From positions 13,562 through 77,561 of the forward strand of contig CAISLM010000014.1 of NCBI GenBank assembly GCA_903886255.1: a stretch of 64,000 nucleotides of DNA. Reading direction: 5' to 3'. Below, one piece after another: positions 12,525 to 64,000 of the stretch. The notes below the pieces were generated by a model. It was not told the origin of the DNA. It made no database searches and saw only the letters and a program-made list of their open reading frames with translations. Made by a program: the position numbers and the translations under genes. The stretch is from Candidatus Collierbacteria bacterium. GTDB taxonomy: Bacteria > Patescibacteriota > Microgenomatia > UBA1400 > MFAQ01. Each line of letters opens with the position of its first letter. The first letter of the stretch is position 1.

Positions 12525-12965
12525 ATGAACAAAAATCTCACTACAACTATTATCGTTGCAGTAATTGCTATTGCGATTGGCTTTTTCGCGGGCACCAAAT
12601 ATCAAGCATCTAAAGCCACATCTGCTGCCGCTACTCTTCGAGCTCAGTTTGCAGCGGGAGGGACAGGACGAGGAACGGGTGGAGGAAGATTGGGTGCCGG
12701 TGGCGGTCAGGTAACCGGAACGATACTAAGCGCGGATAGTGGTTCGATTACTGTGAAGCTTCAAGACGGGAGCTCAAAGATCGTAATCATAAGCGGGTCA
12801 ACTGCCATTGATAAAACGGCTGTTGGATCGATGAATGATCTCTCTGTCGGCACACGAGTCGGCGTGTTTGGCACCACTAACTCTGATGGTAGCGTAACGG
12901 CTCAAAATGTTCAGGTAAACCCTGCTATGAGAACGGCAACGCCCAGTGCTGCGCCAACAAAATAG
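12525..12965 (+). CDS. membrane-anchored Gly-rich beta-rich small protein (DUF5666-like?)
   Basis: N-terminal TM anchor and a GGTGRGTGGGRLGAGGG linker, followed by repetitive beta-strand-like segments (ITVKLQDGSSKIVIISGSTAIDKT...). Confidence 0.45.
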   Translation: MNKNLTTTIIVAVIAIAIGFFAGTKYQASKATSAAATLRAQFAAGGTGRGTGGGRLGAGGGQVTGTILSADSGSITVKLQDGSSKIVIISGSTAIDKTAVGSMNDLSVGTRVGVFGTTNSDGSVTAQNVQVNPAMRTATPSAAPTK

Positions 12966-12984
12966 CATTGACTATCTGCCTAAC

Positions 12985-13012
12985 AAAAATCTCCCATTTC
13001 GGGGGATTTTTG
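12985..13012 (+). terminator. rho-independent terminator
   Basis: ATCTCCCatttcGGGGGAT stem-loop followed by TTTTGTT, downstream of the 12525..12965 gene. Confidence 0.55.
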
Positions 13013-13057
13013 TTATTGATAAGACACCAAACAAGCAATTTATGTTAATCTTAATTA

Positions 13058-15907
13058 ATGAGAGATTTGCGTGGGTTATTTTCGCCAAAATCCGTAACAA
13101 TAATTGGAGCATCGAAGTCCCCGGAAAAAGTAGGAGCAATCGTTTTAAAAAATATTATTGACTCCGGTTTCAAGGGAGCCGTGTACCCTGTTAATCCCAA
13201 AGAAACTGACATCTCCGGACTAAAGTGTTTCCCAAATGTAAATAGTCTCCCGGAAATTCCTGATTTGGCTGTGTTTGCTATTCCTTCTTCCGTTGCCATT
13301 GGTGTCCTGGAAGAAGTCGGAATAAAAGGCATAAAAAATGCAGTCATTTTTACCGCCGGATTTAAAGAGATTGGCAGAGAAGGGGAGATCTTAGAAAAAG
13401 AGCTTGTAGACGTTGCCAATAAATATCAAATTAATGTGTTGGGACCAAATTGTTTAGGATTTGCGAATAATAATTTGCCAATAAATGTTACCTTCGGACA
13501 AGTAGTCAAGGAACAAGGTAATCTTCGGATTATTTCTCAATCCGGAGCTATTGCTGCCAGTCTCTTTGATTGGTGTCAAACAACAAAGCTTGGATTTGGT
13601 GAATTCATCACAATCGGAAATAAAGCTGTAGTGACCGAAAATGACGTCTTAAATTACTGGGCGTCAAATCCTCAACCCATCATCGATCAGCCGGGAATTT
13701 CCAAAGTTTCACCTATTGGCTTATATTTAGAATCAATCGCCCAAGGCGAGGATTTTGTTAAAATCGCCACAGAAATTTCCAAAACAACACCCATATTTGC
13801 ACTTAAACCCGGTAAATCTATCGCAGCCGCATCAGCTATGCATTCGCACACCGGAGCTATCGCCGGTGTTGATAGCGTTCTTGACATCGCACTAAAACAG
13901 TCAGGGGTTATTCGATGTGCAGATTTAAATGTATTTTTTGATTTGGCGAGAGCCTTTTCTTGGGAAAATGTTCCTAAAGGCCCAAGAGTCGCTGTTGTAT
14001 CCAATGCCGGTGGTCCAGCTGTTCTTAGTACTGACTCTATTGAAGAATTTGGTTTACAAATGGCCCAGTTTGGATCAGAAACTCAAAAAAAATTAGCCGC
14101 CTTTTTGCCAAGGATGGCCAGCTTCCTTAATCCCGTTGATGTTTTGGGAGATGCTTTGGCAGACCGGTTTGGTCATGCCCTTGAAGCTGTTTTGCAGGAG
14201 CCGACTGTCGATGCCGCTATCGTCATTCTTACTCCTCAGTTAATGACTCAGATAGAAAAAACTGCCGAAATAATCGGCAATATGTCCGCCAAATTTTTTC
14301 AGCCGATTTTATGCTCATTTATTGGAGGAAGTTTGGCCGCGGTAGGAGAAAAAAAATTAAATGAATGTAAAATTCCTTCGTTCCCCTTTCCCGAAATGTC
14401 TATAAAAACACTTTCGTTGATGTGGAAATGGCAAGATTGGAGAAACAAAAACATCACTTTACCAACGCCCGAAGAATCTCTCTCTCAAAATACTGATACA
14501 GTAAAAAATATTTTATCTTCAGCCAGAGCCAATCGCCAACTAAATCTTGATAGCTTTGCGGCAAACGATGTCATGGTTGCCGCCGGGATCTCAACACCAC
14601 CCACACTCTCGGTGTCAGACTCATCCCAAGCACAGCAATTTGCCGACAAAGAAGGTTGGCCGGTCGTCCTAAAAATTTCGTCACCCAATCTATTACATAA
14701 GGCAGACGTTGGCGGGGTCATTGCACATATCCACAACACAAACGAGTTGTTGATTGCAGGAAATAAAATAATCCAACAAATTAGAACATTAGATCAGGAA
14801 ACAAAAAGTGGTGCCAAAATTCAAATTCAAAAAGAAATCATTGGCGGTGTCGAAGTAATCGTCGGAGTCAAAAGAGATCCTAATTTCGGACCGGTTATTT
14901 TGTTTGGAGCCGGAGGAAAATTCGCAGAGCTGCTGGTAGACAGGAACCTTCATCTTTTGCCTATCAACCGCGAGCAAGCCAAGCAATTAGTTGCCGGCTC
15001 AAAAGTTTATACGTTATTAAACGGATTCCGAGGGGATGAATCATACGATCTAGAGCCTTTGTACAGTACGATAATTCGTCTTGGACAGCTTGCTGAAATG
15101 GTCCCCGATATTGCTGAAATAGAAATCAATCCACTAATTATTACTCACAACGGAGTTTGGGCGGTAGACAGTAAGGTTGTCTTAACACAGCCAACCGACC
15201 GACCACTCAACATTCCTAAATTTAACTCTGCAACGGCTATTTCTCACAATATTCTTTCTCCAAATATTCACGAAATCGAGTTTCAAACTCAACTTCCAAT
15301 AGTAATCAAGTCCGGACAATTTATCAGTGTTAGAGTTAGTGATCAAAGAATCAACGCCTACTCAATCGCTGGGTCAACCGACCCAAATCATTTCCAACTA
15401 TTGATAGATGTCAGTCCTCAAGGCGTCGGTTCAAAATATTTTGAAAATTTGAAAGTAGGAGAAACAATTACTTTCTTAGGACCGGTCGGTTTATTTAATC
15501 TAAAGCCGGACGATGGCTCCCAACAACTTCTTTTCTTAGGAACAGGGTCGGGAATTGTTCCCCTGAAATTTATTATTGAAGATGCTCTAAAAAACAAAAA
15601 TATCACTCAACCAATCTCGCTTTATTTTGGCTTAAGATACAAAGAAGATATTTTTTGGCAAGATATTTTCGATGATTTAACCGGTAAATATCCCAATTTT
15701 CATTACAAACTTTGCTTGTCCAAACCAACGGAAGATTGGACAGGATACAAAGGGCATATCACCGACCTCGTTCACCAAGAGTTTCCTGACACTTCGCGAT
15801 GCGGTGCCTATTTGTGTGGCGGCAAGACAATGGTAGAAGAATCATCTAATATATTACTTAGCTCTGGTTGTCCGGCCGAAAGGATATATTCAGAAAAATT
15901 TAATTAA
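13058..15907 (+). CDS. acetate--CoA ligase (ADP-forming), fused alpha+beta, with C-terminal ferredoxin-NADP reductase-like FAD/NAD(P) domain
   Basis: N-terminal CoA-binding/ligase-CoA region (SVTIIGAS...VNP...NVLGPNCLG), central ATP-grasp-like part, C-terminal ~230 aa with FNR motifs RINAYSIAGS (RxYS), LFLGTGSGIVPL, YLCGGKTMVE, ERIYSEKF. Confidence 0.8.
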   Translation: MRDLRGLFSPKSVTIIGASKSPEKVGAIVLKNIIDSGFKGAVYPVNPKETDISGLKCFPNVNSLPEIPDLAVFAIPSSVAIGVLEEVGIKGIKNAVIFTAGFKEIGREGEILEKELVDVANKYQINVLGPNCLGFANNNLPINVTFGQVVKEQGNLRIISQSGAIAASLFDWCQTTKLGFGEFITIGNKAVVTENDVLNYWASNPQPIIDQPGISKVSPIGLYLESIAQGEDFVKIATEISKTTPIFALKPGKSIAAASAMHSHTGAIAGVDSVLDIALKQSGVIRCADLNVFFDLARAFSWENVPKGPRVAVVSNAGGPAVLSTDSIEEFGLQMAQFGSETQKKLAAFLPRMASFLNPVDVLGDALADRFGHALEAVLQEPTVDAAIVILTPQLMTQIEKTAEIIGNMSAKFFQPILCSFIGGSLAAVGEKKLNECKIPSFPFPEMSIKTLSLMWKWQDWRNKNITLPTPEESLSQNTDTVKNILSSARANRQLNLDSFAANDVMVAAGISTPPTLSVSDSSQAQQFADKEGWPVVLKISSPNLLHKADVGGVIAHIHNTNELLIAGNKIIQQIRTLDQETKSGAKIQIQKEIIGGVEVIVGVKRDPNFGPVILFGAGGKFAELLVDRNLHLLPINREQAKQLVAGSKVYTLLNGFRGDESYDLEPLYSTIIRLGQLAEMVPDIAEIEINPLIITHNGVWAVDSKVVLTQPTDRPLNIPKFNSATAISHNILSPNIHEIEFQTQLPIVIKSGQFISVRVSDQRINAYSIAGSTDPNHFQLLIDVSPQGVGSKYFENLKVGETITFLGPVGLFNLKPDDGSQQLLFLGTGSGIVPLKFIIEDALKNKNITQPISLYFGLRYKEDIFWQDIFDDLTGKYPNFHYKLCLSKPTEDWTGYKGHITDLVHQEFPDTSRCGAYLCGGKTMVEESSNILLSSGCPAERIYSEKFN

Positions 15908-25349: not shown

Positions 25350-25393
25350 GCAAATGGCTATTTTTATAGGCTCAATTATGGTAAAATTTAACC

Positions 25394-26278
25394 ATGCTTC
25401 TAAAATTTAGTTCTAACCTGGACAAACAAGAAATATGGGCAACCGGTGCGGAATTAACCGGGATTATGGGAAAGAGCAAGGAGGGTGGCAATCTTCTTGT
25501 CCACATCTTCGAAAACCCGGTTTTGGTCACAGATAATTATCGGATTTCAAAGCTAAACCCGACTCTTAGGGACACTTTGTTTGCTATTTTAAACAGCCGT
25601 CCAAGAATCGTTGAATATGACGATGTCAGTGTTCATTGGGATGATTCCCATAAACGCGTTTGGAGTCCGTCTATTGATACCATTTTACTTGCCAAAACAC
25701 TTAGAAAAATCTTGCCTGCAAATCCACAAATCAAATCGGCAATTGAACTGGGTTGCGGCTCAGGATTTATCAGCAAATACATTTTGGCTAAATCCGATTC
25801 GTTAAAAACAATGGTCATTAACGACATCAGTCCTTTTGCCATCAAATGTGCCAAAGATAATATCAGTGATACGAGAGCCGATTTTAGAGAAGGGGATGGT
25901 CTTAAAGAGTTGGAAGGTAAGACATTTGATCTAATTACCTGCAACCCACCATACATCCCAAGACCCAATAGTGATGCCAGCAACCCCTACGAGGGAATCG
26001 GTATTCTTAATTATCTTGTTCACAATGGTCAAAAACATTTAAATAAAGGTGGCATTATCGTCATCAGTATGTCAAATTTATCAAACGATCCTGTTTTTAA
26101 TGATCCCTCTGAGCTGGTAATCAAAAATGTAGAAGAAATGGAAGTTCCTCTAAAAATAAATAATATCTTAAACAATCAGGAATGGATGGAGTATTTACAA
26201 AAACACGGGTTGGCAAAAAACTATCATGACGGATATGAATATTGGCACCGAATTAAGACAATTGCTTGTAGAAAATAA
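25394..26278 (+). CDS. class I SAM-dependent methyltransferase, HemK/PrmC-like (NPPY motif)
   Basis: SAM motif I ELGCGSGFIS and catalytic FDLITCNPPYIP. The N-terminal region resembles PrmC/PrmB substrate-binding helices. Confidence 0.7.
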   Translation: MLLKFSSNLDKQEIWATGAELTGIMGKSKEGGNLLVHIFENPVLVTDNYRISKLNPTLRDTLFAILNSRPRIVEYDDVSVHWDDSHKRVWSPSIDTILLAKTLRKILPANPQIKSAIELGCGSGFISKYILAKSDSLKTMVINDISPFAIKCAKDNISDTRADFREGDGLKELEGKTFDLITCNPPYIPRPNSDASNPYEGIGILNYLVHNGQKHLNKGGIIVISMSNLSNDPVFNDPSELVIKNVEEMEVPLKINNILNNQEWMEYLQKHGLAKNYHDGYEYWHRIKTIACRK

Positions 26279-52933: not shown

Positions 52934-53551
52934 TTAAAACTTACGAATAACACCAACGCACTTTCCCTGTACTTTAACATTAATTGCAAAAATAGGGGAC
53001 ATGGATGAGTTCGCAGGCTCAAGACGGACTCTGGTTCTTTCGCGGAAGAACCTTTTCAAGGTTGCCAATCCGTTTTCCAGTAGCGCTACAACAATATCTC
53101 CATCTTTAACACCGGTAGCATCACACTCTTCAATAATTACATAATCATGGTCGAAAATGCCTTCTTCAATCATGGAATCGCCCTTAACCTGTAGCACAAA
53201 TGCCCGCTTTTTTCCCGAAACCATTGACGACGCGACTTTCATAGATGCGTTTGGATCAGTTAAGGGTTCGATTGGCCTTCCGGCAGCTATAAACCCAAGA
53301 ATTGGAAGCTCGATTGAATTCGTCTCCACATTACCATGATCAACTAGAGAAATTCCTCTAATTGCTCCTTCAAATTTTTTAATTATATTTTTCTTTTCCA
53401 AAGCCTGAAGATGTTCGTGCACTGTGGCCAAAGAGGAAACGCCTATAGCTCCGGCAATTTCTGAAAGAGTTGGGGAATAACCATTTTTTTGAATAAACTG
53501 AGAAATAAACTCAACAATTTGTCTTTGTCTTCTGTAAAGTGTTACCGTCAT
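52934..53551 (-). CDS. lexA: LexA repressor
   Basis: HTH (LSEIAGAIGVSSLATVHEHLQALEKK), cleavage site region (IAAG), S24 peptidase Ser/Lys (VKGDSM...). ATG at MTVTLYRRQ preferred over the TTG start at 53593. Confidence 0.85.
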   Translation of the reverse strand: MTVTLYRRQRQIVEFISQFIQKNGYSPTLSEIAGAIGVSSLATVHEHLQALEKKNIIKKFEGAIRGISLVDHGNVETNSIELPILGFIAAGRPIEPLTDPNASMKVASSMVSGKKRAFVLQVKGDSMIEEGIFDHDYVIIEECDATGVKDGDIVVALLENGLATLKRFFRERTRVRLEPANSSMSPIFAINVKVQGKCVGVIRKF

Positions 53552-53710
53552 ATTTTCATTATTACCAAATATTACCCAAATGTCAACAAACAATACCCAA
53601 AACTTGCTAGCCCATTAGCCATATTCTATAATGCAGCTCTTATCTAAAAATTGAAATGTTTTGATGAATAGATAAAATTTGTTCCTTGACAAGTTTTGGA
53701 ATAGGAGGCT

Positions 53711-54310
53711 ATTACGAAGAAGCTTACATTCACGACTCTACTTATTATATTTTTTCTCTCAGCCTGTTCCCCTACATCTTCCCAGATCCAACTTGCGATA
53801 GCTCAAACACAAACAGCGGCGCCATACCCAACACAGACACAGTTGCCAACACCTACTGCATATCCTACTCTAACGCAGTATCCAACCAACACCACAGTTC
53901 CTGCAACAGCTACGCCTAAATCCGGGAAGCTTGCTTGGGCAGAGTTAATAGATTTTATCCTTAATGACCATACCAATTGGAATACCTATAGTGATATATA
54001 TAATTGTGTTAATTTTTCAATAGATTTGGTTTCAGGTGCGAGACAAAAGGGAATTCAGGCCTGGATTGTTTCAGTAAGTTTTGTAGGAAAAACAATAGGT
54101 CACAGTTTTGTAGCCTTTCCGACAAAAGATCGAGACGAAATATGGATTGAACCACAAAGTGATGAGGCCTATACAATTTCTCAAGTAGGACAACCTTTGT
54201 GTCTTGCTAATAATCCTAATCTTTGTTGGGACCAGGGGATTATTTCTCAAATCATCGAACCGGCAGAATGTGATCCTGTGACACATGAGTGTTGGCAAGG
54301 AAATCAATAG
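53711..54310 (+). CDS. lipoprotein with PT-rich linker and transglutaminase-like (Cys-His-Asp) core; apparent non-ATG (ATT) start
   Basis: Frame 2 reads (I)TKKLTFTTLLIIFFLSAC|S, a textbook lipoprotein signal with lipobox LSAC, right after AGGAGG. Downstream: YNCVNFS (Cys), GHSFVAF (His), DEIWIEP (Asp). The ORF track only begins at a TTG at 53843. Confidence 0.5.
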   Translation: MTKKLTFTTLLIIFFLSACSPTSSQIQLAIAQTQTAAPYPTQTQLPTPTAYPTLTQYPTNTTVPATATPKSGKLAWAELIDFILNDHTNWNTYSDIYNCVNFSIDLVSGARQKGIQAWIVSVSFVGKTIGHSFVAFPTKDRDEIWIEPQSDEAYTISQVGQPLCLANNPNLCWDQGIISQIIEPAECDPVTHECWQGNQ

Positions 54311-54392: not shown

Positions 54393-54947
54393 ATGAAGAT
54401 TCGTCTTTTGTCTGTGGTTTTGGTAATTGCTTTTGCCATGTCGGCTTGTGGAGTTTTCCCCCCTGCGGCAACTCCCACCCCCCAGCCGACCTATACCCCC
54501 CAGCCGACCTATACCCCTCAACCTACCTATACCCTTCAGCCGACTTTCACCCCGATTCCCACCAACACCCCAGTTCCTGCTCGGCCCGGCATCGACACAC
54601 CAATTACGGTCATGGGTGTTGACTTCACTGTTACCGATGTAAAAGTCTTAACTTCATATTTCTATCCAATTGAGGGAAAACCTTATTCACCGAATTCAAC
54701 CTCCGACAGGTTTTATTCGGTCGAGATGAACTTCGCCGGTGATATTGATCCTATATTTAATCTTCCGGACGGAGCGTTTTATTTCACTGACAGTCAGGAA
54801 ACGAGCAAATATTATAGTGGGTTTTGGTATTCAAAACGCAGTTTAAGCCTGTTTGCACTGACCTTTGTCTGCCCGGCAAATTTGAGTCAACTTTTGGTCG
54901 TGTTTCCAGACGGACAAAAGATTGACGTTAGTTCATTCCTTAAGTAA
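54393..54947 (+). CDS. lipoprotein with (PQPTYT)n linker and beta-rich C-terminal domain (DUF4352-like?)
   Basis: Signal with lipobox AMSAC, AAGGAGG SD, four 18-nt tandem repeat units encoding PQPTYT. Confidence 0.6.
   Translation: MKIRLLSVVLVIAFAMSACGVFPPAATPTPQPTYTPQPTYTPQPTYTLQPTFTPIPTNTPVPARPGIDTPITVMGVDFTVTDVKVLTSYFYPIEGKPYSPNSTSDRFYSVEMNFAGDIDPIFNLPDGAFYFTDSQETSKYYSGFWYSKRSLSLFALTFVCPANLSQLLVVFPDGQKIDVSSFLK
54475..54546 (+). repeat. 4 x 18-nt tandem repeat (coding PQPTYT units)
   Basis: cccagccgacctataccc x2 perfect, then ctcaacctacctataccc and ttcagccgactttcaccc degenerate. Confidence 0.7.
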
Positions 54948-54990: not shown

Positions 54991-55014
54991 TTGTAAATCG
55001 GTTAAAATATAGAC

Positions 55015-57063
55015 GTGGAGTTCAAAATAAAGTCCGATTATCAGCCGATGGGAGATCAACCTCAAGCAATTGAGAAGCTTTCTGCTGCAATTTCTAAAGG
55101 AAATCCACACCAAACTCTTCTCGGTGTTACCGGATCAGGAAAAACATTCACTGTTGCCAAAGTCATCGAAAAGACACAGCTTCCCACACTAATCATTTCT
55201 CACAACAAAACTCTAGCCAGCCAACTCTATCAAGAATTCCGTGATTATTTCCCGGATAACGCCGTTAGTTACTTTGTTAGTTACTACGATTACTATCAGC
55301 CGGAAGCTTATCTACCTCAAACAGACACATATATTGAAAAAGAGGCTGACATTAACCCCGAAATTGATAAACTTCGTCTCACTACTACTGCCAATCTTCT
55401 TTCTCGTCCCGACAGTATTGTTATCGCCTCAGTCTCGTGTATTTACAACATCGGTTCTCCCGTAGATCAAGAAAAAAACATTCTTACTCTTGCTCGAGGC
55501 CAAATAATTGCCCGTGATACTGTATTGATGAGACTCGGTGATCTTCAGTACACCAGGACAAACGCCGAACTTTCTAGAGGCATGTTTAGAGCCGTCGGTG
55601 GAAACGTTCAGCTTTACCCCTCATACAAAGATATCGTCATTTCTATGGTCTTCGAAGGTACTGTCCTCAAAACAATAGATATCCTTGACCCATACAATTT
55701 TACTAAAATTGAAGATCCGGATTTGGAAAACACAGGTTGGATCACGATAAACCCTGCCAAATTGTTCATTACCGATCCAAAAACTCAAGGTCAGGCCATT
55801 GACAACATTCGCGTCGATCTCCAAAAACAAATTGAAAAATTCAAAAGTGAAGGCAAAACCATCGAAGCATATAGATTGGAACAAAAAGTTAACTATGACT
55901 TGTCTATGCTCGAAGAGGTTGGCTATGTTAATGGTATCGAAAATTACTCACGCTATTTTGACGGCCGCAACCCCGGAGATCCGCCGTATTCTTTAATGGA
56001 ATATTTCCATTACAACGTTAAAAAATTCCATAAATCGAATTTCCTAACTGTAATTGATGAGTCACATATTAGTCTTCCTCAAATAAGGGGAATGTACAAT
56101 GGCGACCAGGCCAGAAAAGAAAATCTAATTAATTATGGTTTTCGTTTACCCAGTGCCAAAGACAATCGGCCTCTAACCTTCACAGAATTTCTTTCACGCA
56201 CGCCACAAAAATTATATTGTTCGGCAACACCTTCAGAATATGAACTTTCTTTATCCAGATCAAGCGCCATCCCCACAATTGCCGAGCAATTAATCCGCCC
56301 CACAGGACTTCTCGATCCTGAAGTTTTCGTTCGCCCCGTTGAAGGTCAAATCGAAGACATAAGCAGAGAAATACTTGAAAGAAAAGCCAAAGGAGAAAGA
56401 ACATTAGTCCTCACTATGACCAAAAAAATGGCCGAGGATTTATCGGAGCATCTAAAAGATAAATACAAAATATTGGTAGAGTATCTCCACTCAGACATAA
56501 AAACACTTGACCGGGCCGATATTCTTGAAAAACTTCGTTTGGGAAATTTTGATTGTTTAGTAGGTATTAATCTTCTTCGTGAGGGGCTTGATCTACCTGA
56601 AGTTTCATTGGTTGCCATTCTGGATGCCGACAAAGAAGGTTTCCTGCGTACACCTACAGCTCTTATTCAAACAATGGGAAGGGCGGCTCGACACATCAAT
56701 GGTCAAGTAATTCTTTACGCGAACAAAATCTCCGCCTCCATGGACATTGCCATGAAAGAAACCGCCAGAAGAAGAATTACTCAAGCTGAATACAATCTCA
56801 AAAACGGAATAACACCTGTCGGTATCATTAAACCAATTCGGGAAGCTCTTATGCACAGAGAGGCATCAGCTCCCGCTCCCAGAATAAAAGAACTCGCTGA
56901 GTTTGGTTGGACGGAAATAGAAGATGTAAACCCACAATCTCTTACACCACAAAAAAAGAAGGCTCTTGTGACCAAACTAAAAAAAATGATGACAATTGCT
57001 GCTAACTCCTGGAACTTCGAATTGGCCGCTCGATATCGTGATACTATCAAAAGACTCCAATAA
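55015..57063 (+). CDS. uvrB: excinuclease ABC subunit B
   Basis: GTG start. MEFKIKSDYQPMGDQPQAI, helicase motifs GVTGSGKT and DESH, the beta-hairpin region, and a C-terminal UvrB/UvrC interaction helix. Confidence 0.95.
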   Translation: MEFKIKSDYQPMGDQPQAIEKLSAAISKGNPHQTLLGVTGSGKTFTVAKVIEKTQLPTLIISHNKTLASQLYQEFRDYFPDNAVSYFVSYYDYYQPEAYLPQTDTYIEKEADINPEIDKLRLTTTANLLSRPDSIVIASVSCIYNIGSPVDQEKNILTLARGQIIARDTVLMRLGDLQYTRTNAELSRGMFRAVGGNVQLYPSYKDIVISMVFEGTVLKTIDILDPYNFTKIEDPDLENTGWITINPAKLFITDPKTQGQAIDNIRVDLQKQIEKFKSEGKTIEAYRLEQKVNYDLSMLEEVGYVNGIENYSRYFDGRNPGDPPYSLMEYFHYNVKKFHKSNFLTVIDESHISLPQIRGMYNGDQARKENLINYGFRLPSAKDNRPLTFTEFLSRTPQKLYCSATPSEYELSLSRSSAIPTIAEQLIRPTGLLDPEVFVRPVEGQIEDISREILERKAKGERTLVLTMTKKMAEDLSEHLKDKYKILVEYLHSDIKTLDRADILEKLRLGNFDCLVGINLLREGLDLPEVSLVAILDADKEGFLRTPTALIQTMGRAARHINGQVILYANKISASMDIAMKETARRRITQAEYNLKNGITPVGIIKPIREALMHREASAPAPRIKELAEFGWTEIEDVNPQSLTPQKKKALVTKLKKMMTIAANSWNFELAARYRDTIKRLQ

Positions 57064-57065
57064 AA

Positions 57066-57092
57066 AGCGGAGTTCTCTTGAACTCCGCTATT
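57066..57092. terminator. hairpin terminator after uvrB
   Basis: AGCGGAGTTctcttgAACTCCGCT 9-bp stem with a weak T tract. Confidence 0.5.
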
Positions 57093-57100
57093 CAATTTCT

Positions 57101-57292
57101 TTAATCGTTCTTTTTTACACGCCCCGCAGACAATGCTTCGTCCAACTCTTTCTGGGTCACATTCGTGGCTGGCACAACGCCGTCACAATCCAAACAAGCA
57201 ACTCCATCAATAATCCAAAGGTTCCTCAATTTAGCCTCCAAACACAAGAATTTGATACCCTGGAGTATATTACAAAGAGATATATTTGTCAA
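57101..57292 (-). CDS. possible 63-aa Cys-containing small protein
   Basis: C7, C17, and CLDC pattern. Lone minus-strand ORF between two plus-strand genes. Confidence 0.2.
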   Translation of the reverse strand: MTNISLCNILQGIKFLCLEAKLRNLWIIDGVACLDCDGVVPATNVTQKELDEALSAGRVKKND

Positions 57293-57356
57293 GAAACAAG
57301 GCTAATCTAAAAATAGCGGCTGGACAAAGTCAGAGATCAGTTTAGAATAAATAGAT

Positions 57357-58853
57357 ATGGACACGCAAGAAATCAACCTTATCCCGGCAGATCAAGCATT
57401 AGATAGTCAAAGAGACGAAGGTTTGCCCAGATCGGCTGAGGAAAAAAATGCTTTGCTGGAAAGGCAATATAACGACGGATTAGACACTGCGGCAAAAAAT
57501 AGTTTGCTGGAAATCGGGATTAACCCGGACGACAACGGACGATTTTCGCCAGAAACTTTTACCTTTGTTAGGAGAATTCTCAAGGAGCGCACAACTCCAT
57601 CAAAGCGAGGGAAACAATATTTGGCATCTGATTCACATTCAAAACGAATTGCCAATCTTATGTACCCATCTATAAAAACTGAGGATCCAAAAACTAAAAA
57701 AAGGTATGACAACTTCGTAACAAATGAAAGAATAATTTTGGAAGAAGGTCATCCCAACAAAAAAATAATAGAGATTCATTATGGTGCAGGAGAAACCGAT
57801 AAAGATTTGGAATTTATTGACCAAATTATTTCTGACCCAGAAAGTTTTGTGAAGGAAACTCTTGGAATTAACAGGCGGATTGGCGAACCATTAGAGTTAA
57901 GTTTAAATCTACGTTATCCCGCTGACATACCCCAAAATGAAAATGTTTTGCGGGAAATCAAAGAAAAAATAGAAGAAAATTCCAAAGATAAATTTAAGAT
58001 TTCTTTAGATTTATCTGTAAAAAATTTACCTTTCACTACTGAACAAATAAAAAAACTTGATGGGGTGATTGATAAACACAAAAAGGAGGTTGGAAGACAT
58101 CCATCTGAACAATATCTGGAAATAAGAGAAGCATCAGTTCGGAATGTTGTCGAAAATATATTAAGTGAACTTCCTGAAACATCAACCCTTTCAAAACTAA
58201 TTAAAATGGACTCCGATTTTGTCATCAAACAGATATATGAAAGTGTCAAAAACTATAAAGGCGGCAACCTCGAAGAAGCCATGGGATACGTTTTTGAGGC
58301 TGCGGTTGCAATTGAAATGAGAGATAACGTCTTTGACGATCAAATGTCCGAATTAATCTGGGGTGCGATGAATGCCAACAAATCAGCCAAAGGAGGAATC
58401 CTGGACCTCACCAGTTCAGACTTTAGAACCCTAAACAGTGAATATCAAAAGTATATGTCTGCTCACTGGTTAGGCCATGGCGACTTCGTTATTGATGAAA
58501 AAATTGCCGGAATTCCTACTGTCACAGCAATAATCGAATGTAAGGTTTCACCAAATGAACACATGCAGGATAGCGTAAGAGGTCAGATTTTAAACGAACT
58601 GGCAAATGTTCAGAAATTTATAGATAAGCACAGTGAAACCGGAAAAGGTGAACTAAGAACACTTTCGGAAAAAGATCTAAGAGTGATAGTCATAAGGCCG
58701 TTACCTGCAGGAAAGGACAATATTCCTAAAAACAGAATGGTCGGTTCAGAAATACTGGGCTCAAGTGTGGTCACAACAATCAGATCAGCAATTTCAACCG
58801 AGGATATGAACATCGTTCGCAAATACATGGGGGGGATCGAGCCGGCGGCTTAA
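57357..58853 (+). CDS. hypothetical 498-aa protein with candidate C-terminal PD-(D/E)xK nuclease-like core
   Basis: No TM or signal. Acidic/Lys-rich helical N-half. In the C-half, ...GYVFEAAVAIE...GGILDLT...HGDFVIDEK-x15-IIECKVS fits helix-E / beta-D / beta-ExK spacing. Confidence 0.5.
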   Translation: MDTQEINLIPADQALDSQRDEGLPRSAEEKNALLERQYNDGLDTAAKNSLLEIGINPDDNGRFSPETFTFVRRILKERTTPSKRGKQYLASDSHSKRIANLMYPSIKTEDPKTKKRYDNFVTNERIILEEGHPNKKIIEIHYGAGETDKDLEFIDQIISDPESFVKETLGINRRIGEPLELSLNLRYPADIPQNENVLREIKEKIEENSKDKFKISLDLSVKNLPFTTEQIKKLDGVIDKHKKEVGRHPSEQYLEIREASVRNVVENILSELPETSTLSKLIKMDSDFVIKQIYESVKNYKGGNLEEAMGYVFEAAVAIEMRDNVFDDQMSELIWGAMNANKSAKGGILDLTSSDFRTLNSEYQKYMSAHWLGHGDFVIDEKIAGIPTVTAIIECKVSPNEHMQDSVRGQILNELANVQKFIDKHSETGKGELRTLSEKDLRVIVIRPLPAGKDNIPKNRMVGSEILGSSVVTTIRSAISTEDMNIVRKYMGGIEPAA

Positions 58854-58924
58854 TCTTTCCATTATCATTTTTGAAAACAAGCATTTCGGGTATTGTTGGG
58901 TGATAGATGATAAAATAGAGCATT

Positions 58925-61849
58925 ATGCCCGAAATCTCACCATCCACTCATTTAATTATTCACGGGGCTCGTCAACACAATCTTAAAAATGTTGATCTGA
59001 CCATCCCAAAGAACAAACTTGTGGTTTTTACCGGAGTTTCAGGCAGTGGCAAATCTAGCATGGCTCACGACACGATCTACGCAGAAGGCCAACGCCGTTA
59101 CGTTGAGTCGCTAAGCTCATATGCTCGCCAATTCTTGGGTGTCATGGACAAGCCGGATGTTGACTCAATTGAAGGTTTATCACCGGCGATTCTCATTGAT
59201 CAGAAACAAGGCAGTCACAACCCAAGAAGCACTGTTGGTACAGTTACTGAAGTCTACGATTATCTCCGTCTCTTATTCGCCAGAATTGGCCATCCACATT
59301 GTCCCAAGTGTGGTCGCGAAATCATGCCCCAAGATATCAACCAGATATATAAATCTGTAGTTGAGCTAGCCGTTTCTCATCCTTTGTATCATAAACAAAA
59401 GGGGACACGTATTTTAATTTTGGCTCCCATTGTCAAAAACCAAAAAGGTGAATTTGCTGACCTTTTTCCCAATTTAAACAAACAAGGAATTGCGGAGGTG
59501 CGTGTTGATGGAAAAATTATTTCAACTCAATCAACACTTTCCCTTTTTAAAAATAATCGTCACAGCATTGAAGCAGTAATTGATAAATTAGTTATTGGAC
59601 AAGTTAATGGTGTTACAGAATATGAGAAACAACGCTTAATTGATTCAATTGAGCAATCAATAAAAATGGCTGATGGCGAAAGTATCATCAGTATTATCGG
59701 TGATGCTTCGCTTTCATTTCCGGAAAACCCGGAAATAATGGAGGACCATTTATTCTCACAAAAGTTGGCTTGTCCGGTCGACAACATTTCCATTCCCGAA
59801 CTAGAACCCCGATACTTTTCTTTTAATGCACCCGACGGCGCCTGTCCCGAGTGTACCGGTCTTGGTACAAAAATGGTTCTTGACACAGAAAGTATTATTT
59901 CTCCAACTCTAACTCTATATGAAGGAGCAATAATTCCATTAGCAGCTCAATTCGAAATGAGGACCTGGTTGGCCAAGCTCATTGTTGAAGCCATGCAATC
60001 GGTTGATTTTTCACCCACAACGCCTCTTTCGCAGATGACAGAAAAACAAAGTCACGCATTATTTTCCGGAACGGGAGATAAAATTTTCGCCGTAAAAGGG
60101 ATAAATCGTCACGGAAAAAACGTAGCATGGAAAAGTCGGTATGAAGGACTCGCAAAAGAATTTGAAAGAAGATATACCGAAAGCTCGTCTGAAGCCTTGA
60201 AAGAAGAAATCGAAAAATATTTAATTAAAAAAACATGTCCGGTCTGTAATGGTACTAGGTTAAAACCGGAAGTTCTGGGGGTCACTGTAGACGGAAAATC
60301 TATTAGTGATGTCACTTCACAATCAATTGAAAATACTGTTATATTTTTCGAAAATCTCGACGCTAAGCTCACAGTATCTGAAAAACAAATTAGTGAGCCA
60401 ATAGTAAAAGAAATTCAAGATAGATTAAGTTTCCTCGTATCTGTGGGACTGGACTACCTCACTCTCGGTAGAGAGTCAGGAACACTTTCAGGAGGAGAAC
60501 TTCAGCGTATTCGCTTAGCTAGTCAAATTGGTTCCCGCCTTACCGGAATACTTTATGTTCTTGATGAACCAACTATTGGATTGCATCAAAGAGACAATGC
60601 AAAGCTCATCAAAACCCTTCAGGAACTTGTTAATTTGGGAAACTCACTTGTTGTCGTGGAACATGACCAACAAACAATGGAGTCAGCTGATCACTTAGTC
60701 GAATTCGGTCCTCATGCCGGAGAAAAAGGCGGAGAGGTTACTTTTCAAGGAACACTCGAAGAAATGAAAAAGTCCGGATGTCTCACTGGTGAATATATAT
60801 CCGGAAAAAAGAAAATCATTGCCAATAAACCCAAAAATATTCCTGAAAGCCAAGGTTCAATTCGTCTCACCGGCTGTAATCATCACAACCTGAAAAAAAT
60901 AGATGCAGAATTTCCCTTAAATCGCTTTATCGCCATAACAGGAGTTTCCGGATCGGGAAAATCATCTTTAATTGTTGACACTTTATATGAGGCCCTTTCT
61001 CAAAAACTAAATTTAATGCACAGGAAGCAAGATATTCCTTACGGATCAATTCTAATCCCGGATATTGTTAAAAGAGTTTCTTTAATTGATCAAAGTCCTA
61101 TTGGGAAAACACCCAGAAGTAATCCCGCCACCTACACAAAAGTTTTCGATCACATTCGACAATTATTTTCAAATACACAAGAGGCTCGTTTCCGTGGATA
61201 CGGTCCGGGAAGATTTAGCTTTAATGTCAAAGGTGGCAGATGCGAAACCTGTCAAGGAGATGGTCAGCTTAAAATCGAGATGCAATTTATGGGAGACATA
61301 TATATCACATGCGAAACCTGTAAAGGTGCCAGATTTAATGAACCGACTCTCGAAGTAGAGTACAAAGGCAAAAATATTGCCGACGTTCTCAATATGACCA
61401 TGGATGACGCAGCTGTCTTTTTCAAAAATATTCCGGTAATCAGCAAAAAACTAGACACAATCAGAAAAGTCGGTCTTGGTTATATAAAACTCGGCCAATC
61501 CGCCCCCACATTATCGGGAGGAGAGGCCCAGCGTGTTAAGCTGGCAACCGAGCTTGCCAAAACGGGAAATGGCCACACAGTTTACATTCTCGATGAACCC
61601 ACAACGGGTCTTCACTTTGACGACTTAAACAAACTTGTTCAAACATTAGTCGATCTTGTAAATCAAAACAATACGGTAATTGTTATCGAACACAACCTTG
61701 ATGTCATTAAAAATGCCGACTACATCATCGACATGGGTCCCGAAGGGGGAGACGAAGGGGGAGAGATAATCGCTACAGGGAATCCACAGAAAGTTGCCGA
61801 TCATTTTGACACGCCAACCTCGCAGGAATTGCGAAAGCTTCTGTTGTAA
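58925..61849 (+). CDS. uvrA: excinuclease ABC subunit A
   Basis: Two ABC modules (GVSGSGKSS x2, LSGGE signatures) and zinc-finger cysteines (CPKCG, CPVCNG, CETCQGDG...CETCKG). Confidence 0.95.
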   Translation: MPEISPSTHLIIHGARQHNLKNVDLTIPKNKLVVFTGVSGSGKSSMAHDTIYAEGQRRYVESLSSYARQFLGVMDKPDVDSIEGLSPAILIDQKQGSHNPRSTVGTVTEVYDYLRLLFARIGHPHCPKCGREIMPQDINQIYKSVVELAVSHPLYHKQKGTRILILAPIVKNQKGEFADLFPNLNKQGIAEVRVDGKIISTQSTLSLFKNNRHSIEAVIDKLVIGQVNGVTEYEKQRLIDSIEQSIKMADGESIISIIGDASLSFPENPEIMEDHLFSQKLACPVDNISIPELEPRYFSFNAPDGACPECTGLGTKMVLDTESIISPTLTLYEGAIIPLAAQFEMRTWLAKLIVEAMQSVDFSPTTPLSQMTEKQSHALFSGTGDKIFAVKGINRHGKNVAWKSRYEGLAKEFERRYTESSSEALKEEIEKYLIKKTCPVCNGTRLKPEVLGVTVDGKSISDVTSQSIENTVIFFENLDAKLTVSEKQISEPIVKEIQDRLSFLVSVGLDYLTLGRESGTLSGGELQRIRLASQIGSRLTGILYVLDEPTIGLHQRDNAKLIKTLQELVNLGNSLVVVEHDQQTMESADHLVEFGPHAGEKGGEVTFQGTLEEMKKSGCLTGEYISGKKKIIANKPKNIPESQGSIRLTGCNHHNLKKIDAEFPLNRFIAITGVSGSGKSSLIVDTLYEALSQKLNLMHRKQDIPYGSILIPDIVKRVSLIDQSPIGKTPRSNPATYTKVFDHIRQLFSNTQEARFRGYGPGRFSFNVKGGRCETCQGDGQLKIEMQFMGDIYITCETCKGARFNEPTLEVEYKGKNIADVLNMTMDDAAVFFKNIPVISKKLDTIRKVGLGYIKLGQSAPTLSGGEAQRVKLATELAKTGNGHTVYILDEPTTGLHFDDLNKLVQTLVDLVNQNNTVIVIEHNLDVIKNADYIIDMGPEGGDEGGEIIATGNPQKVADHFDTPTSQELRKLLL

Positions 61850-61858
61850 TATCAATAG

Positions 61859-63667
61859 ATGAAGAGAATTTCAGGGACAATACAAATAATTCTTCTTCTT
61901 ATTGTTACGCTAACTATTCCCCATAAAGTTTTCGGAATAGATAAGTTTAATACTGATTTCCAGAACTATTATCGAGTAGATCCAAATGGAAATACTCATG
62001 TTACTTTCCTAATAAACCAAACTAACAATCTCTCGGTCGTTTACGCCACCGACTTTGGCTTTAATATCAACGAGACAAAAATTAGCAACGTTAAAGTCAC
62101 AGATGAAGGTACAACGATAATTCCGGATATTGTAAAGACATTAAATCAAACTACAATTTCTTTTCCTTTTGCCAATAAAATAGTCGGCAAAGACAAAGTT
62201 CACACTTTCATCATTGAGTACGATACATCAGATATAGCTACAGAATTTGGAAACACCTGGCAGATAAATATTCCTCGACTGGAAACCGATGAAAATGTAT
62301 CAAGTCGAGAGGTTATACTGACAGTTCCCGGCAGCTTTCCAACTCCGGCATATATAGATCCAAAACCGGATACGATAAATAAAAATGCCTACTATTTTAG
62401 TGGTGATAGATTAAGTAACAAAGCGATTAGCGCCGTTTTTGGACAGACACAATTTTACAAAGGGTCCATTTCCTATCATTTGGTAAACGATTCCGATTCG
62501 CCAGTAACAACCGAGATCGCAATTCCTCCTAACACAGCTTATCAAACCATATTTATAGAAAAAATAGACCCCAAACCTCTTCAAATATCTTCCGACGAAG
62601 ATGGGAATTTTCTGGCAAAGTATCGTTTAGAGAGCAATTCTAAGACTGACGTAAATCTATCGATTTATATAAAACTAAACTTCATCCCCAAGCCAACAAC
62701 CATAATTCCCTCTGATAAACTTCTTCTGTCAAACGATATCTGGAACTTCGACAATGGTGTCTTTACTACCCCCGATATAAAAAATTTAATATCGGCAAAA
62801 TCAATTTATGATTTTGTTGCAGACAAACTGAAATATGATTATGAAAAGGTCAATCGTCAACAATCCCAAAAAACACCCGCGGCAGAGTCGTTAATAAATA
62901 GTCAGAGTGCTATCTGCACTGACTTCGCTAACGTCTTTGTCGCAATAGCGCGGAAGTCCGGTATTCCGGCTCGGGAATTGGAAGGCTTTGGTATATCGGA
63001 AAATCAAGACCTCAAACCTCTTTCGTTAACCCAAGATGTTTTGCATGCTTGGCCGGAATATTTTGATAGAAACAACAGTACGTGGATACAGATAGATCCA
63101 ACTTGGTCTAATACCACAAGGGGTATTGATTACTTTAACAAACTCGATTTTAACCATATCGTTTTTGCCATTCATGGAGTTAGCCCAGATTATCCAATTC
63201 CCGCAGGAGGCTACAAATACAAGGATGAAAAATCAAAAGACGTTTCTATTGAGCCGACAGATCCTGTCACCTTTCCGGAACCAACCTTCACAATTTTGTC
63301 CAGCAATCAAGAGGACAATAGTCTCAAAATTAATGTCAGCAACAATACCGGGGTTTCATATTCAGGCAATACCATAGCCGAGAAAGGCGATTATATAAAT
63401 GAAACAGAACAGCAAATAAACATTCCACCATTCGGAACTACAGAGATGAAATTTAAAGTCATTAAACAGCCACTCATCGGCCAAATTAAAACAAAAGCTA
63501 TAATCTATATCAATGGACAGCGTTTCGAACAAACAATTACTATCGAGCCAATCATCCCGCAGATTGCGTTTTTCTCCGTCATCGGAGTCATTTTGGCAGG
63601 GATTACCTTCCTTGCCAGGCATTTATATCTTCGAAGACAAAAACAAAAAACCATTATATATCGGTAA
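61859..63667 (+). CDS. transglutaminase-like domain protein, signal peptide + C-terminal TM anchor
   Basis: AICTDFANVFVAIARKSGIPAR (Cys), LHAWPEYF (His), WIQIDPT (Asp) form the canonical TGase-like triad. C-terminal IAFFSVIGVILAGITFLA helix. Confidence 0.7.
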   Translation: MKRISGTIQIILLLIVTLTIPHKVFGIDKFNTDFQNYYRVDPNGNTHVTFLINQTNNLSVVYATDFGFNINETKISNVKVTDEGTTIIPDIVKTLNQTTISFPFANKIVGKDKVHTFIIEYDTSDIATEFGNTWQINIPRLETDENVSSREVILTVPGSFPTPAYIDPKPDTINKNAYYFSGDRLSNKAISAVFGQTQFYKGSISYHLVNDSDSPVTTEIAIPPNTAYQTIFIEKIDPKPLQISSDEDGNFLAKYRLESNSKTDVNLSIYIKLNFIPKPTTIIPSDKLLLSNDIWNFDNGVFTTPDIKNLISAKSIYDFVADKLKYDYEKVNRQQSQKTPAAESLINSQSAICTDFANVFVAIARKSGIPARELEGFGISENQDLKPLSLTQDVLHAWPEYFDRNNSTWIQIDPTWSNTTRGIDYFNKLDFNHIVFAIHGVSPDYPIPAGGYKYKDEKSKDVSIEPTDPVTFPEPTFTILSSNQEDNSLKINVSNNTGVSYSGNTIAEKGDYINETEQQINIPPFGTTEMKFKVIKQPLIGQIKTKAIIYINGQRFEQTITIEPIIPQIAFFSVIGVILAGITFLARHLYLRRQKQKTIIYR

Positions 63668-64000
63668 ATCCATAAGCCTAAGGACCAGAATTAAACAACA
63701 CTTCGAAGGCTTCAAGGACGGCTCAACTAGTGCCGCAAGCTTTATTCCCCAAACAAAATTCTTATATTTCAAAATCGTAAATAACGACTTGGAAGCTGTC
63801 ATCACCGAAGCAAATTACATAAAGACATATTTACCCAGATATAACGTAATCACCAAAGATGGCAGGTCAAACATTTACATCATTTTCACAAACTCTCCCG
63901 ACACAAAAATAAAAATTATCCACGCAACCGACATCCAAACACTAGAATTGGATGATTACAAAAAACAAGTATTCGGTCCATACACTTCAACCAAAACTGC
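63612..64000 (+). CDS. uvrC: excinuclease ABC subunit C, N-terminal GIY-YIG domain (3' end outside window)
   Basis: A different frame from the upstream gene reads LPGIYIFEDKNKKPLYIGKSISLRTRIKQHF...YLPRYN (GIY-YIG). Start is TTG 63612 or ATG 63513, overlapping the upstream CDS. Not in the ORF track. Confidence 0.8.
   Translation, partial: MPGIYIFEDKNKKPLYIGKSISLRTRIKQHFEGFKDGSTSAASFIPQTKFLYFKIVNNDLEAVITEANYIKTYLPRYNVITKDGRSNIYIIFTNSPDTKIKIIHATDIQTLELDDYKKQVFGPYTSTKT

What the first reader, a model, noticed from the sequence alone, without database searches (positions are those of the whole stretch)
57357..58853. Unknown 498-aa protein with a candidate PD-(D/E)xK nuclease core inserted between uvrB and uvrA
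uvrB, uvrA and uvrC are all on the same strand within 9 kb, and this gene occupies the uvrB-uvrA gap. It matches no family recognised by eye. Its C-terminal third has the ordered pattern expected of a restriction-endonuclease-fold core: helix with Glu (GYVFEAAVAIE), strand Asp (GGILDLT / HGDFVID), then ExK (IIECK) about 18 residues later. A standalone nuclease embedded in an NER/SOS neighbourhood (lexA is 4 kb upstream) could be an uncharacterised repair nuclease or a defence/toxin module riding an SOS locus.
Basis: inference. Interest (0 to 1): 0.7.

Follow-up and report, generated by a model that had tools for sequence, protein, structure and literature searches.

The report
Orphan nuclease between uvrB and uvrA
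A real 498-residue gene in an uncultured Collierbacteria (candidate-phyla-radiation) genome belongs to a tiny, fast-evolving family whose C-terminal third looks like an active restriction-enzyme-type DNA nuclease; it is more likely an optional, lineage-specific gene in a variable spot next to uvrB than part of the DNA-repair machinery.

Summary
The ORF (57357-58853, +) is real and lies between uvrB (55015-57063) and uvrA (58925-61849). It matches no Pfam, NCBIfam, PADLOC or PHROG model. An exhaustive HMMER scan of 1.84 billion representatives found 13 matches at E<=0.001, about 11 of them true relatives.

The repair/SOS reading is weak. Every relative with context follows uvrB, but all are Collierbacteria with the same gene order. 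The closest species joins uvrB and uvrA directly, and others carry different cargo or a gene remnant. The protein diverges far faster than UvrB. A candidate operator shared by the lexA and uvrA promoters is absent upstream of it. UvrC has both nuclease domains.

Best reading: an accessory, restriction-like endonuclease of unknown target.

The parts
57357..58853 (+). Gene X: 498-aa orphan-family protein (stop codon included)
   Evidence: ORF list and translation. The identical protein is on 18 contigs read from several metagenomes. Full-length relatives at 14-44% identity show it is a real coding gene.
57357..57431 (+). Residues 1-25: variable, probably disordered N-terminus
   Evidence: pLDDT is below 50 in both models. 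This stretch is poorly aligned in the family.
57432..58256 (+). Residues 26-300: lineage-specific N-terminal module. It comprises a long helix 27-52, an alpha/beta sandwich at about 113-245 and a helical linker 249-299. It includes the HYGAGET loop and the LPExSxLxKLI motif.
58257..58850 (+). Residues 301-498: predicted PD-(D/E)xK (restriction-endonuclease-fold) nuclease domain
58296..58298 (+). Codon E314 (GYVFE, first core helix), invariant
58482..58484 (+). Codon D376 (HGD, immediately before strand 377-383); D in 8 and E in 1 of 9 members
58536..58544 (+). Codons E394-C395-K396 (the ExK at the end of strand 386-395); E and K invariant
   Evidence: In homologue P0009 this D...ExK stretch gives a sub-threshold match to Pfam RE_BsaWI (E 0.009).
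58584..58586 (+). Codon Q410, invariant, on the helix after the ExK strand
57321..57348 (+). Promoter-like site TGGACA-16-TAGAAT ending 8 nt before the ATG, with no Shine-Dalgarno sequence (near-leaderless start)
   Evidence: Consensus scan, 10 of 12 matches. Homologues carry a TATAGAAT-type -10 element at the same distance from the start. Function is inferred only.
57066..57089 (.). Hairpin after uvrB (10-bp stem), terminator-like on both strands. It separates uvrB from gene X.
   Evidence: sequence.
57064..58884 (.). Segment with no nucleotide counterpart in the closest species (L008); it holds only the spacer and gene X
   Evidence: blastn homology to L008 stops at 57052 and resumes at 58885. 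The L008 uvrB-uvrA gap is 283 bp with no ORF longer than 38 aa.
58885..58901 (+). Candidate operator TTCGGGTATTGTTGGGT in the uvrA promoter, downstream of gene X. It is listed as context: it marks where conserved sequence resumes.
   Evidence: Perfect match to the motif also found twice in the lexA promoter. It is conserved upstream of uvrA in six other genomes.

Best explanation
Gene X encodes a cytoplasmic, two-module DNA endonuclease. The C-terminal ~200 residues form a metal-dependent PD-(D/E)xK (restriction-endonuclease-fold) catalytic domain. Glu314 on the first core helix, Asp376 at the start of one strand and Glu394-x-Lys396 at the end of the next would bind Mg2+ and activate water for phosphodiester cleavage. 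Gln410 sits on the following helix. The N-terminal ~300 residues (a helical part plus an alpha/beta sandwich) are specific to this family. They presumably supply target recognition or regulation, as the non-catalytic domains of FokI-type or type IV restriction enzymes do.

The gene is an accessory, fast-evolving member of a mosaic gene islet that Collierbacteria carry between uvrB and uvrA. It is kept in some lineages and lost, eroded or disrupted in others. It has its own promoter-like site and lacks the candidate operator that lexA and uvrA share. The most likely role is a solitary restriction-like (self/non-self) nuclease, not a step of nucleotide excision repair.

Shown: the gene is real, the family is tiny and clade-restricted, the motif is conserved, the predicted fold fits, and presence/absence and divergence rates are as stated.

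Inferred: catalytic activity, DNA as the substrate, the role of the N-terminal module, and the defence-like function.
For: Family. There are 13 matches at E<=0.001 among 1.84e9 representatives; one (P0015, a tape-measure-like protein) is judged spurious and one (P0013) is a gene remnant. There are no relatives in phage, plasmid or viral collections.

Active site. E314, E394, K396 and Q410 are invariant and D376 is D/E. These fall within the 26 most conserved of 498 columns.

- also LlaBIII, Cap4, SdaI, BstEII, HamA, Can2, NucS, NgoMIV, Upx, Avs4, ERCC1, Spo16, Rpb5 and VC1899

By my own classification from memory, about 20 of the top 60 are restriction-endonuclease-fold proteins. One homologue gives a sub-threshold RE_BsaWI match exactly over D...ExK.

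Accessory status. L008 (UvrB 87% identical) has uvrB, 283 bp, then uvrA. L009-L012 carry NUDIX and other cargo instead. L011 keeps only a ~70-100-aa C-terminal remnant. In L097 the 5' part is replaced by a phage-like/TnpB block.

Fast evolution. X is 22-45% identical where UvrB is 75-79% and UvrA 79-82%. X is 31% identical where UvrB is 96% (dN 0.75 against 0.03).

No SOS signal. The motif TTYGGGTAWTNTTKGKT is perfect only at lexA (twice) and uvrA, and is absent upstream of X and its homologues.

NER nucleases complete. UvrC has GIY-YIG, UVR and RNase H domains.

Against: For the defence reading there is no PADLOC hit, no adjacent methyltransferase or partner gene in the window, and no recognised defence gene among those island genes that were scanned against Pfam. 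The strict linkage to uvrB in every relative with context could still reflect function rather than ancestry.
Confidence: 0.5

Rival explanations
1. X is a repair nuclease that works with UvrB/UvrA. It could be an extra incision or damage-processing enzyme (analogous in role to Cho or UVDE), kept next to uvrB for co-expression.
Against: All relatives come from one clade with the same overall gene order, so linkage is explained by descent. The closest species and several others lack the gene at this locus. The gene decays to a remnant and evolves far faster than UvrA/UvrB. A terminator-like hairpin and a 290-bp spacer separate it from uvrB. There is no UVR or other UvrB-binding motif. The candidate lexA/uvrA operator is absent. 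UvrC is complete.
Confidence: 0.15
2. X is a selfish, locus-specific (homing-like) endonuclease. It would persist by cutting X-less uvrB-uvrA junctions and being copied in by recombination with the conserved flanks.
For: The insertion site is the same in all lineages, with presence/absence polymorphism between close species. Divergence is discordant: X is 31% identical where UvrB is 96%, and X synonymous sites are more saturated than those of adjacent uvrB (pS 0.74 against 0.63). Erosion to a remnant fits a gain-decay cycle. In L091 a 76-bp duplicate of the uvrB 3' end sits next to X, showing recombination at this boundary.
Against: At 498 aa it is large for a free-standing homing endonuclease. 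The islet also holds several other recurrent, unrelated gene families with the same patchy pattern. No flanking repeats exist in the window. The discordance can also arise from weak constraint plus alignment error at 31% identity. No target site has been identified.
Confidence: 0.1
3. X is a DNase toxin of a toxin-immunity or polymorphic-toxin type.
Against: The window copy has no neighbouring small gene; uvrA follows directly. The small-gene family also occurs without X (L012). X has no signal peptide, transmembrane segment or delivery domain visible in the sequence. There are no PADLOC hits and no toxin-family Pfam hits.
Confidence: 0.05
4. The nuclease resemblance is coincidental. X would then be a non-catalytic or otherwise unrelated protein, and the conserved E/D/E/K residues would serve structure or another chemistry.
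Confidence: 0.15

Closest known systems
FokI-type cleavage domains of type IIS enzymes (FokI 2fok, nickase N.BspD6I 2ewf, R.BspD6I small subunit 2p14)
   Different: No cognate methyltransferase is nearby. The N-terminal module shows no recognisable winged-helix recognition domains. The family is confined to Collierbacteria.
Solitary or modification-dependent (type IV-like) and defence nucleases with a PD-(D/E)xK domain (McrC 6hz4, LlaBIII/Mrr-like 4xqk, HamA 8vxy, Cap4 6vm6, Can2 8bao, Avs4 8dgf, Upx 9wuf)
   Different: No PADLOC model matches. No helicase, ATPase, SAVED/CARF or other partner is present in the protein or next to it. It does not sit in a recognisable defence island.
CdiA-CT DNase toxins (EC869 4g6u, Y. 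pseudotuberculosis 4zqu)
   Different: No delivery domain, no immunity gene, and a cytoplasmic protein in a chromosomal housekeeping neighbourhood.
NER and repair nucleases (UvrC/Cho, NucS 2vld, XPF-ERCC1 6sxa)
   Different: No GIY-YIG, RNase H-like or UVR domain. The gene is dispensable in close relatives. It is not linked to the candidate lexA/uvrA operator.

Membership tests
PD-(D/E)xK phosphodiesterase superfamily (restriction-endonuclease-like fold) | [quoted passage not shown] | tested here: inconclusive
PD-(D/E)xK phosphodiesterase superfamily (restriction-endonuclease-like fold) | Asp at the N-terminus of the second core strand and (D/E)xK on the third strand | tested here: met
   D376 directly precedes strand 377-383. 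E394-C-K396 close strand 386-395. The spacing is 18 residues.
PD-(D/E)xK phosphodiesterase superfamily (restriction-endonuclease-like fold) | Acidic residue (usually Glu) on the first core helix contributing to the site | tested here: met
   E314 is invariant and E320 is conserved in 8 of 9 members; both lie on helix 305-320.
PD-(D/E)xK phosphodiesterase superfamily (restriction-endonuclease-like fold) | Catalytic residues conserved across homologues | tested here: met
   E314, E394 and K396 are invariant. D376 is D in 8 of 9 members and E in 1. D350 is not conserved.
PD-(D/E)xK phosphodiesterase superfamily (restriction-endonuclease-like fold) | Significant sequence-profile match to a curated member family | tested here: not met
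   No Pfam or NCBIfam hit. Only a sub-threshold RE_BsaWI match (E 0.009, 16.5 bits against a cut-off of 26.2) in homologue P0009. The PDB profile search returned only noise.
PD-(D/E)xK phosphodiesterase superfamily (restriction-endonuclease-like fold) | Metal-dependent phosphodiesterase activity | not testable with these tools
   Needs biochemistry.
Type II / IIS restriction-modification system | Cognate DNA methyltransferase encoded next to the endonuclease | tested here: not met
   The neighbours are uvrB and uvrA. A motif scan of all ORFs of at least 150 aa in the 64-kb window finds only an NPPY protein at 25385-26275 (30 kb away; PrmC-like by size, from my own knowledge) and a chance DPPY in UvrB.
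SOS (LexA) regulon | LexA operator in the promoter region | tested here: not met
   No Cheo-box (GAAC-N4-GTTC) lies near the gene. The candidate lineage-specific operator TTYGGGTAWTNTTKGKT is perfect at lexA (twice) and uvrA, but absent from 57064-57356 and from the upstream regions of the homologues. Caveat: the identity of this operator is inferred from conservation, not from binding data.
Core nucleotide excision repair machinery | Co-occurrence with uvrABC in related genomes | tested here: not met
   L008, L009, L010, L011 and L012 have uvrB (and uvrA in all but L010, whose contig does not reach it) but no intact X at the locus. tblastn finds X-like sequence in none of the 80 UvrB loci except the L011 remnant. 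Whole genomes were not searched.
Known anti-phage defence systems (PADLOC-DB 2.0) | Match to a defence-system protein model | tested here: not met
   No hit at E<=1.
Polymorphic / CdiA-CT-type DNase toxins | Delivery domain plus adjacent immunity gene | tested here: not met
   No such domain is present. uvrA follows after 71 bp with no small ORF in between.
Free-standing homing endonucleases | Fixed insertion site with presence/absence polymorphism and cleavage of the empty site | tested here: inconclusive
   A fixed site and polymorphism are seen. Cleavage of the empty site is not testable here. Size and co-resident cargo are atypical.

The most novel reading that the evidence does not exclude
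Gene X may be functionally tied to its locus. One form is a UvrB-coupled auxiliary incision nuclease peculiar to Collierbacteria. The other is a homing-like endonuclease that targets the uvrB-uvrA junction and drives turnover of the islet. Either would explain why every known relative, down to 14-25% identity to the window protein, sits immediately after uvrB.
Probability: 0.12. Interest if true: 0.65.

Novelty: new member of a known kind. Interest (0 to 1): 0.3.

Why it matters
If the prediction holds, this is a previously undescribed, clade-restricted family within the very large PD-(D/E)xK nuclease superfamily, joined to an N-terminal module with no known relatives. Candidate-phyla-radiation bacteria have tiny genomes and few recognised defence or accessory functions. 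A solitary nuclease that is maintained, diversified and repeatedly lost at one chromosomal spot is a small handle on how these organisms handle foreign or damaged DNA.

It is also a caution about reading function from position. Location inside a uvr cluster here reflects a clade-specific variable islet, not demonstrable involvement in repair.

The practical value is modest. It could become a new nuclease scaffold if the N-terminal module proves to be a specificity domain.

Tried and rejected
**Family and homology searches with no useful result**
- Pfam, NCBIfam, PADLOC and PHROGs scans of X, of its two halves and of all family members gave nothing above threshold.
- Word-indexed searches of 5.8 billion proteins found only the protein itself and P0002, even with the 11-sequence profile.
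- Pattern-based scans of genome, metagenome and viral contigs with the family alignment found nothing. The peptide patterns were too narrow to catch the divergent members, so these negatives are weak.
- tblastn against phage and plasmid records gave no match.
- Profile searches against PDB sequences returned only noise such as MetJ and albumin.

**Structure**
- The first AF2 run with 2 sequences left the C-terminal third unmodelled (pLDDT below 50) and was superseded.
- Foldseek against PDB and BFVD gave no hit at E<=0.001. The AFDB libraries were unavailable.

**Regulation and the spacer**
- The Cheo-box search was at chance level, with none near the gene. A first guess at the operator spacing (TTACC-N6-TTACC) was wrong.
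- Rfam on 56900-59000 returned only sub-threshold snoRNA noise.
- The 63-aa minus-strand ORF in the uvrB-X spacer looked similar by eye to ORFs in L008 and L009. BLASTP, tblastn and blastn show no similarity to any fetched locus, so it was dropped.
- Flanking direct or inverted repeats around X are only chance-level short matches.

**Ideas abandoned**
- 'UvrC lacks its GIY-YIG domain, so X might supply the 3' incision.' This came from the database gene call (352 aa). The GIY-YIG N-terminus is encoded upstream of the called start.
- 'L092 is an insertion-free allele of L091.' L092 is most simply the same sequence starting inside the repeat.
- P0015 (879 aa) as a distant relative. It looks like a phage tape-measure-like protein matched through a coiled-coil stretch.

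**Literature**
- The 2017 Environmental Microbiology paper on the Patescibacteria SOS network could not be read, so the operator could not be checked against published motifs.

Full report
**1. The observation**

The ORF at 57357-58853 (+) starts with ATG and encodes 498 residues.

- Upstream is a complete uvrB at 55015-57063, with ResIII, UvrB_inter, Helicase_C, UvrB and UVR domains.
- Downstream is a complete uvrA at 58925-61849.
- lexA is at 52934-53551 on the minus strand.
- The gene after uvrA (61859-63667) is a transglutaminase-core protein with N- and C-terminal hydrophobic segments.
- uvrC follows on the same strand. The public gene call starts it at a TTG equivalent to 63789. Translating the frame from 63450 shows the GIY-YIG N-terminus (LPSLPGIYIFEDKNKKPLYIGKSISLRTR...) from about 63513, overlapping the end of the transglutaminase-like ORF.
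- Together with the UVR and RNase H domains, UvrC therefore has both nuclease domains.

**2. Organism and family**

UvrB of the window is 87% identical to that of a Candidatus Collierbacteria MAG (L008). It is 76-78% identical to other Collierbacteria/Patescibacteria MAGs. The window therefore comes from a candidate-phyla-radiation bacterium.

Gene X matches nothing in Pfam, NCBIfam, PADLOC or PHROGs. In a 5.8-billion-protein collection it has one relative, P0002, at 36% identity. An exhaustive HMMER scan of 1.84 billion representatives finds 13 proteins at E<=0.001. One of these is a spurious tape-measure-like match. Another is a 63-aa fragment. No relatives occur in phage, plasmid or viral-contig collections. 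This is a genuine, very small, clade-restricted family.

**3. Is there a PD-(D/E)xK core?**

In the 11-sequence alignment, identities to the window protein run from 14% to 44%.

- The invariant residues are S276, G310, F313 and E314.
- A315, E320, Y363, E394, K396, Q410, P448 and S477 are nearly invariant.
- In nine C-terminal domains, G310, F313, E314, Y363, E394, K396, Q410, P448 and S477 are invariant.
- D376 is Asp in eight members and Glu in one.
- Only 26 of 498 columns are conserved in at least 8 of 9 members, and all four proposed catalytic residues are among them.

AlphaFold2 with only two sequences failed on the C-terminal third. With 11 sequences it reached mean pLDDT 81 and pTM 0.64. 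The model gives:

- helix 305-320, carrying E314 and E320
- two inserted helices
- strand 377-383, preceded by H374-G-D376
- strand 386-395, ending in E394-C-K396
- helix 405-427, carrying Q410
- the hydrophobic strand 442-449
- two more strands and a final helix

This is the residue placement that defines the superfamily: Asp at the start of the second core strand, ExK on the third, and Glu on the first helix (PMC3424549).

Several points count against a firm assignment:

- Foldseek finds nothing significant.
- No profile method links the family to a known nuclease family.
- The first core strand is not resolved in the model.
- The fold can occur as a substructure elsewhere.

I rate the nuclease-fold assignment at about 0.8.

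**4. The N-terminal 300 residues**

**5. Does the position mean repair?**

Every relative with usable context lies just after uvrB:

- P0002 (uvrB C-terminus 44 bp upstream)
- P0005
- P0006
- P0009
- P0010
- P0012

Where contigs are long enough it also lies before uvrA. All these loci share the same order: PPDK, enolase, iPGM, TP-methylase, lexA, uvrB, a variable stretch, uvrA, a transglutaminase-like gene, then uvrC. The linkage is therefore what descent within one clade would give.

The stretch between uvrB and uvrA is a mosaic islet:

- L008 has 283 bp and no gene. Nucleotide homology to the window stops at 57052 and resumes at 58885.
- L009 and L010 carry a NUDIX gene and others.
- L011 carries six other ORFs plus a 70-100-aa C-terminal remnant of X at 12893-13192.
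- L012 carries four unrelated ORFs.
- Several islet gene families recur with and without X: NUDIX, a 135-160-aa family, a 118-aa family and a coiled-coil family.
- In L097 the sequence is 100% identical to L095 from inside X onward, while the upstream part is a phage-like block with a TnpB gene. This is either a real disruption or an assembly chimera.

X diverges much faster than its neighbours. It is 22-45% identical where UvrB is 75-79%, UvrA 79-82% and the transglutaminase-like protein 49-58%. Between L091 and L093, UvrB is 96% identical (dN 0.03, dS 1.34) but X is only 31% identical (dN 0.75). That fits weak constraint or diversifying selection (apparent dN/dS about 0.5), or exchange of old alleles by recombination in the conserved flanks. 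Alignment error at this identity prevents a firm choice.

**6. SOS control**

No Cheo-box lies near the gene. Comparing lexA upstream regions of four genomes revealed conserved repeats. The same motif sits between the -35 and -10 regions of uvrA in seven genomes. As TTYGGGTAWTNTTKGKT it has three perfect matches in the 64-kb window. Two are in the lexA promoter (53564-53580 and 53585-53601) and one is before uvrA (58885-58901). None of 100 shuffles reaches the observed count of six matches at up to two mismatches. It is absent from the 293 bp upstream of X and from the upstream regions of all homologues.

X has its own promoter-like site ending 8 nt before the ATG and no Shine-Dalgarno sequence. 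Its homologues, uvrB and uvrA are arranged in the same way. A terminator-like hairpin follows uvrB. The operator's link to LexA is inferred, and the one paper on the Patescibacteria SOS network could not be read.

**7. Interpretation**

The evidence supports a real gene for a two-module protein whose C-terminal domain is very probably an active PD-(D/E)xK nuclease. It does not support membership of the NER machinery or the SOS regulon. Several observations point to an accessory, restriction-like nuclease or, less likely, a selfish locus-specific one:

- dispensability in close relatives
- erosion to a remnant and disruption in others
- rapid divergence, with the N-terminal module (residues 26-245) least conserved
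- an own promoter-like site
- absence of a partner gene

A defence role is not demonstrated. There is no PADLOC hit and no methyltransferase nearby. The islet genes that were scanned against Pfam (NUDIX, acetyltransferase, coiled-coil) are not recognised defence genes.

**8. Novelty and score**

This is a new small family in a very large, well-known superfamily, with an unknown N-terminal module, in an uncultured lineage. A specialist would not be surprised by another divergent PD-(D/E)xK family. The strict uvrB linkage is the only unusual aspect, and it has an ordinary explanation. Interest is 0.3. The most novel reading not excluded is a locus-tied function (UvrB-coupled or homing-like), at about 0.12 probability.

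Noticed in passing
window 53564-53580 (-), 53585-53601 (-), 58885-58901 (+); also L008, L011, L012, L088, L091, L095 upstream of uvrA: A direct-repeat motif TTYGGGTAWTNTTKGKT occurs twice in the lexA promoter and once in the uvrA promoter. It is conserved at both places in related Collierbacteria genomes, which makes it a candidate LexA operator for this lineage. A 2-mismatch copy lies at 12998-13014, upstream of the 949-aa ORF 13058-15907.
   Followed up: partly
window 63513-64000 (+); L001 16433-17491: The public gene call for uvrC starts at an internal TTG (352 aa) and drops the GIY-YIG domain. The reading frame continues upstream to about 63513 and encodes PGIYIF...LYIGKS...R, overlapping the last ~155 nt of the preceding ORF. 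UvrC appears to lack the C-terminal helix-hairpin-helix region: the RNase H domain ends at residue 338 of 352.
   Followed up: partly
window 61859-63667 (+): A 602-aa transglutaminase-core protein with hydrophobic N- and C-terminal segments lies between uvrA and uvrC. It is at this position in the related loci checked that extend past uvrA (L001-L004, L088, L091, L095, L097). It evolves quickly, at 49-58% identity.
   Followed up: no
L091 7084-7159 and 7843-7918: A 76-bp direct repeat (93% identical) of the 3' end of uvrB flanks an inserted 215-aa gene of unknown family that sits between uvrB and the X homologue. This shows recombination or integration at the uvrB 3' boundary.
   Followed up: partly
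L097 1-8592 versus L095 (identical from L095:2531 / L097:8593 onward): In one assembly, uvrB and the 5' 40% of the X homologue are replaced by a phage-like block (XkdF-type prohead protease domain fused in frame, N6/N4 methyltransferase, SH3 domain protein) next to a TnpB (OrfB_IS605) gene. This is either a mobile-element insertion into X or an assembly chimera.
   Followed up: partly
L011 12893-13192 (+): A 63-aa ORF (P0013) and its surroundings are a decayed C-terminal remnant of an X homologue (E 7e-11 to P0005). It lies inside the uvrB-uvrA islet of Collierbacteria UBA12020.
   Followed up: yes
window 57101-57292 (-), promoter-like 57292-57264 (-), hairpin 57066-57089: The 293-bp uvrB-X spacer holds the best sigma-70-like match of the region on the minus strand (TTGACA-17-TATACT, 11 of 12), a 63-aa ORF and a hairpin followed by a T-run on the minus strand. 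There is no homologue in any fetched locus and no Rfam match, so a small antisense transcript is possible but unsupported.
   Followed up: partly
window 53843-54310 (+) and 54393-54947 (+): Two small proteins with Pro/Thr-rich linkers lie between lexA and uvrB; the second has a lipoprotein-like signal (…AMSAC). This second gap is also variable: it is empty in L008, and ORFs of different size (109 aa in L088, 160 aa in L091) sit there in two other relatives.
   Followed up: no
window 55006-55014, 57340-57356, 58905-58924: uvrB, gene X and uvrA all lack a Shine-Dalgarno sequence. Each has a -10-like element (TAAAAT, TATAGA or TAGAAT) a few nucleotides before the start codon, which suggests leaderless or near-leaderless mRNAs. 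The gene at 54393 has a strong AGGAGG.
   Followed up: no
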